Source: Eledone cirrhosa
Taxonomy: Eukaryota
Length of the DNA: 64,000 bases
Reading direction: 5' to 3'
Assembly (NCBI GenBank): GCA_964016885.1
Contig: OZ024742.1
Coordinates: 249,550,001-249,614,000, forward strand
The translations under genes were made by a program, and so were the position numbers. Numbering within the stretch: position 1 is the first letter of the stretch; every line of letters starts with the position of its first letter. Positions 11,160-61,324 of the stretch are shown here, one piece after another. The notes beneath the pieces were generated by a model. It made no database searches. It worked only from the letters and a program-made list of their open reading frames with translations, and was not told where the DNA came from.

Positions 11160-11167
11160 ATGCAAAT
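11160..11167 (+). promoter_or_regulatory. Octamer ATGCAAAT upstream of HHR
   Basis: Perfect octamer ~96 nt upstream of the HHR core at 11263; function inferred. Confidence 0.4.
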
Positions 11168-11255
11168 GAGATTAATAACCTCATTTACACAGACGAGAAA
11201 ACTATATATTCTCGCCTGCCTTTAAGTCCAACAGTCGCAAGCGGTGGGGGGGGGG

Positions 11256-11301
11256 GACCGTCTTGACGATGGCCAGTTAAGCCTGAAATGCATAGACGGT
11301 T
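11256..11301 (+). ncRNA. Minimal type I hammerhead (core TTGACGA)
   Basis: gaccgtc-TTGACGA-tggccagttaagcct-GAAA-tgca-TA-gacggtt; 7-bp stem I, palindromic stem III. Confidence 0.75.
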
Positions 11302-11499
11302 GTCCCCCTTGCTGCTGCTGAACATCACCAGAGGGCGTTAGCCCCCCCCCCCCCCACACACACACACACACCTGGTGTTTGCATAGCTACGGCTTCCTAA
11401 AACCGTATTTCTTTGGAAATACGAAATATTTATACATATTGTATAAAGCTATGCTTGAAGCGAAATCCTATTTCTTTTATATATATATATATATATGTA

Positions 11500-12020
11500 T
11501 AAAAATGGAAAAAATGAAATTTATTTCTCACTCTTACTACGGCTGATACATAAATGTAAGTATGTATAAGTGCATACATATATGTATACAGACGTAAAGT
11601 AGTATGTATATACATATATACATGCACACACACATATATATATATATGTACGTATGGGTTTACCGAACATTTATTATAATGCTCGGTCTGTTTGTAAACA
11701 AACAGCCCGAATTATTAGCCGTACAGTTTTCGGTAACCATCGCTGCTCTATTTGTTCAATACTGACAAAGGAACGATGAACTAGTTTCTAGCTTATTAGC
11801 TGTCATAAGCAGCGTATACCTTCCTGTTAGTTAATTGAACGTTTGAAAGTATATAGTTTCCTTATGCATATTAACGGCTGAGCAGCCTAATTTGCATATC
11901 GAGTGAGTTAGACGGCCGGGCGTACTGAAAACGATAAATGGAAGAAATGAAATTTCATTTTTCGCTCTTAATACGGCTGATACTAAAATGTAAGTATGTA
12001 TACGTACATACATATATGTA
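11500..12020 (-). mobile_element. Dispersed diverged copy of retrozyme family A (one unit plus partial)
   Basis: Homologous to the 61-63 kb unit; HHR core decayed to CTTATGA near 11775-11815. Confidence 0.85.
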
Positions 12021-12324
12021 TACATACAAATATATATATATATACTCTTTTACTCTTTTACCTGTTTCAGCCATCCGGCTGAGGCCATACATATATATAT
12101 ATATATATATATATATATGTATATATATATATATATATATATATATATATATATATATATATATATATATATATATATATATATATAAAATACACACACA
12201 CACACACACACACACACACACACACACACACACACACACACATATATATATATATGTATATATATACACGTATATACATATACATATGTATTACGTTATA
12301 GATATATAGATATATAGATATATG

Positions 12325-12960
12325 TAATATAAAACGAAAAATCAGTGATGCATCTGAACTCAATTTATTGTGTGTTATAATTGTTTCGCCGGCGGATAGC
12401 TCGAGACACCATCATTGTGTGCATCTGTCTGATTCTGGACTCGCAAGTTCGACGGACACGTCTAATGATTTCGGAGCAAATTCTTTCAGAGTCGTATTAC
12501 CGCCAAAAACTTCATCCTCTTCGCGCGTCCTGTTATTGGCCGATGGTTGTCTACGTCATCATAATTCTGACGACAGGTATCGTTCGGCAGAGCATCAGCT
12601 GTCCTATGACTGATAGTCAGCCGAACGATACCTGTGGTCAGAATTATGATGACGTAGACAACCATCGGCCAATAAGATGACGCGCGAAGAGGATGAAGTT
12701 TTTGACGGTAATACCCAGTGAAATAATTCGCTCCGAAATCATTAGACGTGTCCGTCGAACCTGCGGGTCCAGAATCAGACAGATGCACACAATGATCGCG
12801 TCTCGAGCTATCCGCCGACGAAACAATTGTAACACACAATAAATTGAGTTCAGATGTATCACTGATTTTTCGTTTTATATTATATCATACTCTGTTCTGT
12901 AAGAGCATAGAGTGCTGAACCGGCATACCGCCTATGGAAGCATCTTAGCTACCATCAGAC
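12325..12960. mobile_element. Fold-back family B copy with divergent HHR-like motifs (12372-12459 -, 12748-12835 +)
   Basis: Arms are reverse complements around ~12605; gtgt-CCGTCGA...GAAA-caattg-TA-acac. Confidence 0.8.
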
Positions 12961-13191
12961 ACACACACACACACACACACACACACACACACACACACAT
13001 ATATATATATACACATATGTATTAGGTTATATATTTATATATAATAAGGAGTTGACGGACCCAGCATATTTATCAATGACAGGACCCGTTGTATCTCAGC
13101 GTACTCAATAGGTTATGTAGGATACATTCCCAGAGTATAAACATAGTTATTCGTTTCAATACAACACACGTAAACGGGGGCCTATTGTAGT

Positions 13192-57899: not shown

Positions 57900-58420
57900 A
57901 AAAATATAACATGTCTCGGTTTAGAATAAAGCGTTTCTTTTGCCATGGATCAGACAGTGCAATTTGGTTCCATTATGCGAATCCAAGGTTTGATCTTTTC
58001 ACTTCCTTGCTCACCATACAAATAATATTAAGCTCCTCGTCACAATATTAAGTTCATAGACACACGAATTTGACGCCTATATATGAATAATACTTCATAC
58101 ATGACACCACCTATATACAAACATTCTTCTTCTTCTTCTTCTTCTTCTTCTTCTTCTTCTTCTTCTTCTTCTTCTTCTTCTTCTTCTTCTTCTTCTTCTT
58201 CTTCTTCTTCTTCTCCTTCTTCTTCTTCTTCTTCTTCTTCTTCTTTAAGAATCAATCGATTAACGTTACCCAAAGAAACTTCGGAGAATCTTATTTTGGC
58301 CGCTTGTATTCGCGATTCTATTCGTTCGGTCATTACTCAAGATCGGGTATGAAGTGGTAACATGACTGACAAATGTAGGATCACTCGACTAATATTTGCG
58401 AAACATCAAAGTTTCTCTAT
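57900..58420 (-). pseudogene. RTE-like LINE 3' relic interrupted by (TTC)n
   Basis: MTERIESRIQAAKIRF resembles the RTE post-RT motif; (TTC)n at 58125-58243. Confidence 0.55.
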
Positions 58421-60456
58421 TTTAAGAGCATGCCCGATTTATTGAAGGCTCGACAATTGTTACCCCTTTCAGTAAAACCAGCTGCATGCTTTACGTCATG
58501 TGCTCTGAAATAATACTTACTATCATTTACATTAAATATTACATTAGAGATTATCGTTAATCAAACAATTTGCTTATCAAAGCATCACTAATACATACAT
58601 AATATATATGTGTACGTATGTATGAATGTATGTATGTGTGTATGTGTGCGTGTATGTAGTATACATGTATGTACGTATGTAAACATGTACGTATATATAT
58701 ATATCTATGTGTGTGTGTGTGCGTGAGAGAGAGAGAGAGAGAGAGAGAGAGAGAGAGAGAGAGAGAGAGAGAGAGAGAGAGAGAGAGTGCGTGTACGTGT
58801 CCGTGCGTGTGTGTGTTTATTTTTCTGGGTGTGTCTGCGGTAGATAGTGGCTACTCAGAGTTAATTAATCGTACTCAGAAATAAAAGAAGATATATTACA
58901 AACGCTTTGATGTGGCAGCATTTTATCAGTTTTTATCGCAATCACAGTAAATATATACGTACGCACATTCTGTCTGAATGTATGTATGTATGTATATATG
59001 TATGTATGTGGATGTATGTATGTTTGTTTGTATGTATGTAAGCATGTATGTCTGTATTATTATATATGTATACATGTATACATGCATGTATCTATGCATG
59101 CCAGCAAGTATATATATATACGACTATTTATAAATATATATATAAATGAATATATATATATATATATATATATATATGTATATATATATGTATATATATA
59201 TATATAAATGAATATATATATATAAATATATATATATATATATAAATATCTCTCTCGCTCTCTCTCTCTCTCTCTCTCTCTCTCTCTATATATATATATA
59301 TATATATATATATATATATATATATATAAATAAATGAATATATATATATATATACATATATATAAATATATGAATATATATATATATATATTATATTACA
59401 TTATATATGGAAGCATCCTAGTCAAGTGCTTCTGGCATCATCATTTCTTTCAATTTGAATCAATGTCAACGTGTGTTCCCTGTAAATGGTCAGGCCTCGC
59501 TCATATTCTTTTCTAGGTGACGTCACATATCACTGGAAGTTGAGGAATACTATTATATTCACTTGTGTCCAGCAAGAGCTTTTCACTATAGGGAGGCGAG
59601 CCCCTGCTGACAACGCGGATACCCACCCAATTACGTAATGCATACTAACATTATCTAATTTCTGCATATGGAGGTTCCGCTCTGAGCACCGCCAGCAGAA
59701 CGGAATCGTAGAAACTGGTGCATGGTTCCGAGTAACTCAATTCCCCTACCCATATGAAGTCATCTTCTTCAGTGATTAACGTATCTGTACACTCCAAACG
59801 GTTTGATTGACATTTTAAAAATACGGACTTAATTAGATTATTGAGCGAACAAACGAGCGAAGCTGTTTCCATTCTACCCCATAAACTTCGTCCGTTAATT
59901 ATATACATATAATATAGAAATGGCTTTTACAAGTCTAAATCTGTTTCACTGGTGTGTATGCGCGTTTGCAGGTGTATTCACTTGTGTCTGTAAGTGACAG
60001 ATTCATAAAGTATATTTGCATGCAAACATATATATATATATATATAATTGAAACATATATATATAATTGTGTATGTACATACATACACAAACACACACAC
60101 ATATACATATACATATGCATATATATATATATATACATACACACACACAGAGACACACACATATTTATATATACATACAAACACGACCACATATGGACAC
60201 ATACACACATACAGCTACACACACATATATAGGTGTATGTATATATATATGTATGTATGTATATATATATATATATATATATATATATATATATATATAT
60301 ATATATATATATATATATATATGTAGATAAATCTACCAAGAGTTTACGGTAGTGTCCAATTCGTATGAAGAACTCAATGTATTCCGGATATCATGGAAAG
60401 AAGAGATGCAATGAAAAATCACTTTCGGTGAAAGATAAACGGAATACAGAGTCAAG

Positions 60457-60881
60457 ATAAAATATTAAACAAATAATGAATAAAACAATGAAACAGTTCC
60501 TTATATTAAACAAAAAAAGTTCATTATTTAACGATCGTTTCTAGGATATATATGTGTTAGAATTGGCATGCATATTCAACAGATCTATGTACAAAATTAT
60601 ACAAAATTATACAAACTATCAAGATTAAATATACATACCAAACACACATATATGCCGTCTTCAGAAATTATTTCTAAAGACGGCATATATGTGTGTTTGG
60701 TATGTATATTTAATCTTGATAGTTTGTATAATTTTGTATAATTTTGTACATAGATCTGTTGAATATGCATGCCAATTCTAACACATATATATCCTAGAAA
60801 CGATCGTTAAATAATGAACTTTTTTTGTTTAATATAAGGAACTGTTTCATTGTTTTATTCATTATTTGTTTAATATTTTAT
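60457..60881. mobile_element. Near-perfect ~425-bp palindrome made of two divergent hammerheads (family O)
   Basis: Axis ~60669; +: attattt-CTAAAGA...GAAA-cgatcg-TT-aaataat (60667-60815); -: attt-CTGAAGA...GAAA-cgatcg-TT-aaat (60523-60668). Confidence 0.85.
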
Positions 60882-61198
60882 ATATATATATATATATATA
60901 TATATATATATATATATATATATATATATATATATATATATATATGTATATATATATAAATGTAAGTATGCATGTATACGTACATACATATATGTATACA
61001 GACGTACAGTAGCAAGCACATATATATATATACATATATATATATACATATGCATACAGGTACACATACATATATGCACGTATCAGTTTAGCGGCGCTAA
61101 CGTCGCTTTGTTCGTTTGTAAACAAACTGAACAGCCTGAATTTATGCCATACGGTGTTAAGGCAACCACGTCACCTTTTTGTTCAACACTGACACAGG

Positions 61199-61243
61199 AA
61201 CGATGTACTAGTTTCAAGCTTGTTAGCTATCATCAGCACCGTT
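61199..61243 (-). ncRNA. Minimal type I hammerhead (identical copies at 61665, 62133, 62605, 63071)
   Basis: aacggtg-CTGATGA-t agct aaca agct t-GAAA-ctag-TA-catcgtt. Confidence 0.9.
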
Positions 61244-61316
61244 TACCCATCTGCCAGATAGTTGAACGTTCGAAAGTATATACTTTCCTTATGAAAGTTA
61301 ACGGCTGAGCAGCCTA

Positions 61317-61324
61317 ATTTGCAT
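61317..61324 (-). promoter_or_regulatory. Octamer ATGCAAAT in each array unit, ~81 nt upstream of the HHR core
   Basis: cctaATTTGCATat is conserved in all units and in the diverged copies at ~11890, 25040 and 39627. Confidence 0.45.

What the first reader, a model, noticed from the sequence alone, without database searches (positions are those of the whole stretch)
11160..61324. Same-orientation octamer about 80-96 nt upstream of the hammerhead in three unrelated families: possible snRNA-type internal promoter
Seen: ATGCAAAT on the HHR-sense strand lies ~81 nt upstream of the core in family A (all copies), ~85 and ~117 nt in family C (2578, 2610) and ~96 nt in the element at 11160/11263, although the families share no other evident homology. 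Established: the octamer is the distal element of snRNA promoters, and newt satellite 2 (also HHR-bearing) is transcribed from snRNA-like promoter elements. Inference: a convergent promoter-plus-ribozyme module that lets each unit drive transcription of the next.
Basis: partly seen in the sequence, partly recalled or inferred. Interest (0 to 1): 0.75.

Follow-up and report, generated by a model that had tools for sequence, protein, structure and literature searches.

The report
Retrozymes carrying a borrowed snRNA promoter
Tens of thousands of short non-coding repeats in this animal genome carry, just ahead of a hammerhead (self-cutting RNA) motif, a rigidly spaced block matching signals upstream of the host's own small-RNA genes, which likely lets each repeat start its own transcription; the families are related rather than convergent, and no transcript has been seen.

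Summary
The octamer is real, sense-oriented and conserved: 25,671 of 56,769 hammerhead cores of this type have it 84-104 nt upstream, against 182 in reverse orientation. The families are not unrelated: A and C align colinearly, and E shares their ordered architecture, so this is one diversified retrozyme lineage. The octamer is also not distal: in this genome ATGCAAAT-N-AG sits at -76 to -79 in U6, U6atac, tRNA-Sec and MRP genes. In seven repeat families it is followed by YCA at +16 and TATA at +42 to +45, the spacing of the host's U1/U2/U5 core. Between young and old A copies this block is 94-96% identical, against 66-78% for its flanks. Best reading: an internal hybrid snRNA-type promoter, probably for Pol II, predicted to start 45-58 nt before the cleavage site and read into the next unit. 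No RNA data were available. Newt satellite 2 is the precedent. This scan noted the same module earlier on other DNA of this genome.

The parts
60957..63874 (-). Family A young array: five 466-472 nt tandem units, 98-100% identical, plus an inverted 5'-truncated piece at 63496-63874, flanked by (TA)n
61314..61325 (-). T-ATGCAAAT-TAG box of the unit named in the finding (octamer 61317-61324); also at 61783, 62251, 62723, 63189
   Evidence: matches the U6/tRNA-Sec/MRP upstream box
61305..61308 (-). TCAG at +16 from the octamer, like the U1/U2/U5 element at -55 to -58
61277..61282 (-). TATATA at +42 from the octamer
61248..61254 (-). Predicted transcription start (about +73 from the octamer); inferred from host gene geometry, not observed
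   Evidence: inference
61198..61244 (-). Type I hammerhead: stem I, CUGAUGA core at 61236, U-U at the base of stem II, GAAA, palindromic stem III, predicted cut after GUA (61206/61205)
11131..11478 (+). Family E copy (~335 nt unit): octamer 11160-11167, TAAC (family TCAC) 11176, TATATA 11203, hammerhead core 11263-11288 with C3-to-U change, predicted cut after 11294
2359..2680 (-). Family C copy: duplicated box+TCAG module (octamers 2610-2617 and 2578-2585), core 2493-2469, stem I decayed in this copy
54379..54737 (-). Second family C copy: three 33-nt modules, exact octamer only at 54636-54643, decayed core at 54518
11551..11988 (-). Old family A copy, 74% identical to the young unit, octamer 11890-11897, core mutated
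24711..25116 (-). Old family A copy, 77% identical, octamer 25040-25047, core at 24959
39249..40294 (-). Old family A copies with an inversion: octamer 39627-39634 and core 39546; truncated core 40006 without octamer

Best explanation
These repeats are one diversified lineage of hammerhead-bearing, non-coding tandem and dispersed units (non-LTR retrozyme type), each carrying a fixed block of octamer box, YCA at +16 and TATA at +42 to +45 that likely works as an internal snRNA-type promoter. The box matches the element at -76 to -79 of the host's U6-type genes; the YCA-to-TATA spacing matches the host's U1/U2/U5 genes. Transcription, probably by Pol II, is predicted to start about 73 nt after the octamer, 45-58 nt before the cleavage site, and to run into the next unit. 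Paired hammerheads would then cut off the short leader and release a monomer whose 3' part holds the next promoter, so the promoter survives copying. Copying is inferred to use Penelope-like enzymes.
For: Shown: 25,671 of 56,769 cores have a sense octamer at 84-104 nt against 182 antisense; reversed-pattern controls 0-3 (copies are not independent). The box is present at -76 to -79 in 7 Pol III-type promoters: three U6 types, U6atac, two tRNA-Sec, MRP. YCART is at -55 to -58 with TATA about 25-28 nt later in 14 of 14 distinct U1/U2/U5 promoters used. In 134 distinct box+hammerhead copies YCAS is at +16 in 113 and the first TATA at +42 to +45 in 115, while the core varies from +80 to +107. Across 7 families, ungapped identity is 0.94 for the box and 0.68 for the YCAS block, against 0.31 upstream and 0.28 downstream. 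Families U and P were found by a hammerhead pattern without the octamer and still show the geometry: U 4 of 4 distinct copies, P 8 of 22 decayed copies exact at 85-93 nt. Young versus old A: box-to-TATA 94-96%, hammerhead 85-90%, flanks 66-78%. PSE+TATA matrix per-position p is 2e-4 for A and C, 3e-4 for D, 2e-3 for G. Sister families M and N lack the octamer but keep AATT..33..YCAG..26-27..TATAA, the U1/U2/U5 layout (p 2e-3 and 6e-3). Precedent: newt satellite 2 has an internal snRNA promoter for Pol II (as cited in PMC2220036).
Against: No transcript, start site or binding was observed. E and U match the Pol II core only weakly (p 0.02-0.05), and the window's E copy has lost TCAC and core C3. 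The octamer families lack a clear AATTA element 33 nt before TCAG, which all 14 Pol II promoters have. Box-to-TATA spacing (42-45) does not overlap that of the Pol III genes (46-48), so the block is a perfect copy of neither promoter class. In human cells PSE plus TATA selects Pol III (PMC5493778). A, C, D, E and G were ascertained through the octamer itself. The matrices rest on 14 and 4 sequences, and the RNase P gene has TCAGT but no box. No autonomous partner was found: 1 of 315 modules had a Penelope-like hit within 1.2 kb upstream. In Xenopus only 1 of 9 retrozyme dimers cleaved in vitro (bioRxiv 2026.07.22.740005).
Confidence: 0.55

Rival explanations
1. The block is a U6-type Pol III promoter with slightly shortened spacing; it would make short RNAs that end at T-runs, or read through weak T4 runs to the next ribozyme.
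For: The box with its N-AG extension is found in 7 Pol III-type promoters and not at that place in U1/U2/U5. Box matrix p is 3e-6 to 3e-5 for all seven families. PSE plus TATA means Pol III in human. Most T-runs in A, M and E units are only T4.
Against: Box-to-TATA is 42-45 in the repeats against 46-48 in all 7 genes. YCA at +16 follows the Pol II layout. Family U has two T5 runs within the unit. The host's Pol II snRNA genes also have a TATA-like element.
Confidence: 0.22
2. The block is kept for another reason: a POU-factor site or chromatin element that acts without a fixed start, or an RNA element needed for packaging or reverse transcription.
For: ATGCAAAT is the Oct1 site (PMC5493778). 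Family C multiplies the box+TCAG module in 33-nt steps, as enhancers often do. The block lies inside the predicted monomer RNA.
Against: Three motifs keep fixed spacing to each other but not to the ribozyme. They match untranscribed upstream DNA of host genes in the same orientation. M and N swap the box but keep YCAG-TATA.
Confidence: 0.13
3. Neutral inheritance: the octamer is just an ancestral 8-mer copied along with the repeats.
For: The families are related and the genome-wide counts reflect amplification of a few masters.
Against: The block is better conserved than the ribozyme between A subfamilies and is invariant across families whose flanks are at about 0.3 identity.
Confidence: 0.05
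4. One reading: unrelated families independently assembled octamer plus hammerhead.
For: E's body is only weakly alignable to others: z 2.4 to old A and 2.7 to M, no signal to young A or C.
Against: A and C are colinear. A, G, D, U, M and N are linked by body similarity. E has the same ordered layout and the same unpaired base of stem II. 13 other hammerhead clusters lack the octamer.
Confidence: 0.05

Closest known systems
Metazoan non-LTR retrozymes (Cervera and de la Pena 2020, PMC7229834, passages read; Li, Clavereau and Pollet, bioRxiv 10.64898/2026.07.22.740005, parts 1 and 3 of 5 read)
   Same: Non-coding, AT-rich tandem units of 310-470 nt with one type I hammerhead each; short palindromic helix III; a U-U base of stem II as in axolotl HHR_Amex2; Penelope-like elements in the same genome.
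   Different: A review by the same group says metazoan retrozymes do not seem to harbour promoters (PMC7761336, passage); here a host-like promoter block is conserved. No cleavage or circRNA was shown here.
Newt satellite 2 (Coats, Zhang and Epstein 1994; paper not held; seen only as cited in PMC2220036)
   Same: Hammerhead tandem repeat with an internal snRNA-type promoter, Pol II. A 5' end about 47 nt before the cleavage site and an octamer-like element are recalled, not checked.
   Different: Tested experimentally in newt, only predicted here. Sequence homology was not tested. Here the box abuts the core and matches the host's Pol III genes.
snRNA gene promoters (human DSE/PSE, PMC5493778 passages; Drosophila PSEA/PSEB/TATA, PMC4227766 passages)
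   Same: Octamer, a proximal element at about -57 and a TATA-like element at about -30. The 4-5 nt shorter box-to-TATA spacing recalls the 8 versus 12 bp spacing of Drosophila Pol II versus U6 genes.
   Different: The octamer is proximal, not a distal enhancer. The repeats combine a Pol III-gene box with a Pol II-gene core. In Drosophila the spacing partner does not choose the polymerase.
Penelope-like element pLTR hammerheads (PMC4209133 and PMC11167929, passages)
   Same: Small palindromic helix III predicted to work as a dimer; inverted and truncated insertions in AT-rich DNA; a promoter is assumed in the pLTR.
   Different: No ORF is attached. The two Penelope-like families sampled have unrelated 3' ends.
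Trypanosome Pr77 / L1TcRz (PMC8190864, abstract; PMC3383444, search listing)
   Same: A retroelement that pairs an internal promoter, bound by TBP and SNAP50, with a self-cleaving ribozyme.
   Different: HDV-like ribozyme, downstream promoter overlapping the ribozyme, LINE clade.

Membership tests
Metazoan non-LTR retrozyme | Type I hammerhead in each unit | tested here: met
   Core, stems I and II and palindromic stem III in all five full A units; no Rfam gathering hit
Metazoan non-LTR retrozyme | Short low-GC tandem units, dimers to multimers | tested here: met
   466-nt x5 array, GC 0.29-0.35; 466-469 and 311-nt arrays elsewhere
Metazoan non-LTR retrozyme | No protein coding | tested here: met
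   No ORF of 150 aa or more over the A, C or E units
Metazoan non-LTR retrozyme | Self-cleavage and monomeric or circular RNA | not testable with these tools
   No RNA holder listed
Metazoan non-LTR retrozyme | Related to the pLTR of an autonomous Penelope-like element | tested here: inconclusive
   Penelope-like ORFs abound, but with two queries only 1 of 315 modules had a hit within 1.2 kb upstream
Vertebrate-type snRNA DSE | Octamer as a distal enhancer, separated from the core promoter | tested here: not met
   Box at -76 to -79 in host genes and 16 nt before YCA in the repeats
Host U6-type (Pol III) promoter | ATG(C/G)(A/T)AAT-N-AG box | tested here: met
   p 3e-6 to 3e-5 in seven families (matrix from 4 genes)
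Host U6-type (Pol III) promoter | Box-to-TATA distance 46-48 nt | tested here: not met
   42-45 in 115 of 134 copies
Host U1/U2/U5 (Pol II) promoter | YCAG followed by TATA about 25-28 nt later | tested here: met
   A, C, D, G, M, N p 2e-4 to 6e-3; E and U only p 0.02-0.05
Host U1/U2/U5 (Pol II) promoter | AATTA 33-34 nt before YCAG | tested here: not met
   No clear match in the octamer families (p 0.02-0.83); AATT is present at 33 nt in M and N but scores p 0.07-0.13
Newt satellite 2-type self-promoted repeat | Internal promoter activity shown by mutation, Pol II dependence | not testable with these tools
   Needs a reporter assay or start-site data

The most novel reading that the evidence does not exclude
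A whole retrozyme radiation parasitises the host's snRNA transcription machinery with a chimeric promoter (Pol III-gene octamer box on a Pol II-gene core), and sister families have exchanged the upstream box (octamer versus AATT) while keeping the core. Together with the newt precedent, self-promotion through snRNA-type promoters would be a recurrent solution in animal retrozymes, and this host would have an undescribed U6-type promoter with a proximal octamer.
Probability: 0.35. Interest if true: 0.72.

Novelty: new variant of a known kind. Interest (0 to 1): 0.52.

Why it matters
How animal retrozymes get transcribed is open: a 2020 review says they seem to lack promoters and rely on read-through (PMC7761336). 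This gives a precise, mutable candidate promoter and a predicted start site in more than 25,000 copies, outside amphibians. It also defines from sequence the host's U6-type and U1-type promoter elements, useful for expressing guide or hairpin RNAs in this animal group (likely an octopus; my inference from repeat content and genome size, not a tool result). The concept itself is known from newt satellite 2, which caps the novelty.

Tried and rejected
RNA evidence: no RNA holder listed. Laying four contig-only runs of unrecorded type showed presence only, with no starts, ends or joints; used neither for nor against. Rfam gathering search: no hit. A first 40-column matrix scored C-like copies but not A or E; I replaced it with motif-wise matrices, which is a post hoc choice. 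Host genes left out of the Pol III set: U6 locus L079 (box displaced to -270 by an insertion), L076 (near-duplicate of L075), four U6 copies without promoter flanks, seven of eight U6atac loci lacking box and context, which I judged pseudogenes, and RNase P (no box). Eight of 12 extra U6 regions and four extra U6atac regions printed nothing because the anchor failed. A DNA search for family M returned nothing, probably through the common-word filter. Family Q has an exact octamer in 1 of 5 copies, at 107 nt; unresolved. Search for an autonomous partner was negative with two queries. Coats 1994 is not held. The supplement of PMC7229834, with mussel, coral and axolotl retrozyme sequences, could not be read, so whether those carry the block is open. 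Literature searches listed no paper on this module or on a proximal octamer in cephalopod U6 promoters; subscription journals are not covered. Single-strand folding z-scores were unremarkable (-0.95 to -1.9) and are not used as support.
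Full report
Observation. ATGCAAAT occurs 15 times in the window against 5.98 expected; 12 lie in three hammerhead repeat families and 3 do not. Octamer start to core start is 88 nt in family A, 92 and 124 nt in C and 103 nt in E, always on the ribozyme strand. Two A cores lack the octamer because they begin at inversion junctions. The E copy named in the finding is decayed: TTGACGA for the family's CTGACGA and TAAC for TCAC. Exact octamers are in 55 of 61, 28 of 30 and 32 of 35 near-full-length A, C and E copies. 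Genome-wide, a hammerhead pattern without the octamer has 56,769 matches; 25,671 have a sense octamer 84-104 nt upstream and 182 an antisense one, which by eye are mostly inversion junctions among the 100 listed. These counts reflect amplification and are not independent events.

What the elements are. All are non-coding, AT-rich units of about 310-470 nt, single, inverted or tandem, often set in (TA)n. Each has a type I hammerhead with a short stem III, palindromic in A and E, and most have a non-canonical pair at the base of stem II. This is the architecture described for metazoan retrozymes and Penelope-type hammerheads that work as dimers (PMC7229834, passages; PMC4209133, passages). Rfam misses them. 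Penelope-like ORFs are abundant, with 150 scored matches for each of two queries and a GIY-YIG hit for one. Their 3' ends are unrelated to these families, and 1 of 315 modules had such an ORF within 1.2 kb upstream. Mobilisation by Penelope-like enzymes is therefore inferred from the literature (bioRxiv 2026.07.22.740005, parts 1 and 3), not shown.

The families are related. A and C align colinearly from the octamer through the body. Body-only local alignments link A, G, D, U, M and N; E links only weakly (z 2.4 to old A, 2.7 to M) and C showed no significant link in that test. An eight-way alignment shows the same ordered layout in all, E included, with the box, CA, TATA and core invariant. 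Of 129 hammerhead candidates in 17 clusters, the octamer is in 41 of 48, 23 of 27 and 15 of 17 members of the three large clusters and in one A-type singleton. It is in 1 of 36 members of the other 13 clusters, some of which are truncated or chance hits. So it marks one lineage and is not a convergent rule.

Comparison with the host's small-RNA genes. Three U6 promoter types, one U6atac, two tRNA-Sec and the MRP gene carry T-ATG(C/G)(A/T)AAT-N-AG at -76 to -79 and TATA at -30/-31, 46-48 nt apart. The RNase P gene lacks the box but has TCAGT; loci set aside are listed under Tried and rejected. Fourteen of 14 distinct U1, U2 and U5 promoters used have AATTA at -88 to -91, YCART at -55 to -58 and a TATA-like element near -30, and no proximal octamer. 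The octamer is thus proximal and specific to the Pol III-type genes here, unlike the distal enhancer of human snRNA genes (PMC5493778, passages).

The repeats combine both. In seven families (A, C, D, G, U, E, P) the box is followed by YCA at +16 and TATA at +42 to +45. In 134 distinct copies YCAS is at +16 in 113 and TATA at +42 to +45 in 115, while the core lies anywhere from +80 to +107. The YCA-to-TATA distance equals that of U1/U2/U5; the box-to-TATA distance is 4-5 nt shorter than in the Pol III genes, with no overlap. Against 399,760 background positions, the U6-box matrix gives p 3e-6 to 3e-5 and the PSE+TATA matrix gives 2e-4 (A, C), 3e-4 (D), 2e-3 (G), but only 0.02-0.05 for E and U; P was not scored. 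A, C, D, E and G were ascertained through the octamer. U and P were found by hammerhead patterns alone and show the same geometry. Sister families M and N have no octamer but keep AATT, 33 nt, YCAG, 26-27 nt, TATAA, an independent hint that the YCAG-TATA core is what is selected. Between young and old A copies in the window the box-to-TATA block is 94-96% identical, the hammerhead 85-90% and the flanks 66-78%.

Mechanism. Shown: sequence match, rigid spacing, preferential conservation, orientation. Inferred: a start about 57 nt after YCA, which is 45-58 nt before the cleavage site; read-through into the next unit; dimeric cleavage that removes the short leader and frees a monomer holding the next promoter near its 3' end; circularisation and reinsertion as for retrozymes. 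I favour Pol II because the core spacing is that of U1/U2/U5, units contain T4-T5 runs, and the spacing shift parallels the 8 versus 12 bp difference in Drosophila (PMC4227766, passages). Pol III remains the main rival. No RNA run was available.

Relation to what is known. Newt satellite 2 has an internal snRNA-type Pol II promoter (cited in PMC2220036; the original is not held), so the principle is known. A review states that metazoan retrozymes do not seem to harbour promoters (PMC7761336, passage), and the 2026 preprint has no occurrence of the word promoter. Eight searches listed nothing on this module. Eight earlier notes of this scan describe it on other DNA of this genome. I had the U6 match before opening them and do not count them as support.

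Verdict: a real feature, partly misread. It is a new variant of a known kind, a retrozyme lineage with a probable built-in hybrid snRNA-type promoter. Interest 0.52.

Noticed in passing
L017:~1000-1160 (+), also L016, L112, L119, L172; window 13947 (-): Other hammerhead families without the octamer carry motifs resembling ETS, NRF1 and YY1 sites 55-115 nt upstream of the core (motif names recalled), suggesting a different, housekeeping-type promoter kit.
   Followed up: no
L304-L318 (311-nt arrays) and L323, L151, L267: Sister retrozyme families M and N lack the octamer but show the AATT..YCAG..TATAA layout of the host's U1/U2/U5 promoters.
   Followed up: partly
L073-L075, L139, L358, L359, L364 versus L031-L033, L085-L090, L127-L133: The host's Pol III-type genes have a proximal octamer box at -76 to -79; its Pol II snRNA genes have AATTA at -90, TCAGT at -57 and a TATA-like element. 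The RNase P gene (L202) has TCAGT, no box, and ends in a T9 run.
   Followed up: partly
L095:181-330 (+): A family U copy with a canonical G-C stem II and GUC site lies about 1.3 kb upstream of a U1 gene in a 2,674-nt U1 tandem array.
   Followed up: no
window 19310-19870 / 22674-23234 and 20656-21348, 23462-23959: Two Penelope-like ORF fragments and a 561-nt, 97% inverted repeat with a CTGACGA..GAAA motif, around an expanded TTTATT tract.
   Followed up: partly
window 60460-60880: A long near-perfect palindrome directly beside the A array.
   Followed up: no
window 28302-30126 (-) and 8750-9292 (-): Fragments of LINE-like ORFs (weak zf-RVT hit; C2H2 zinc fingers).
   Followed up: no
window 30865-32628: A 33-nt, 42-copy CA-rich minisatellite followed by AAC runs and a 76-nt repeat.
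   Followed up: no
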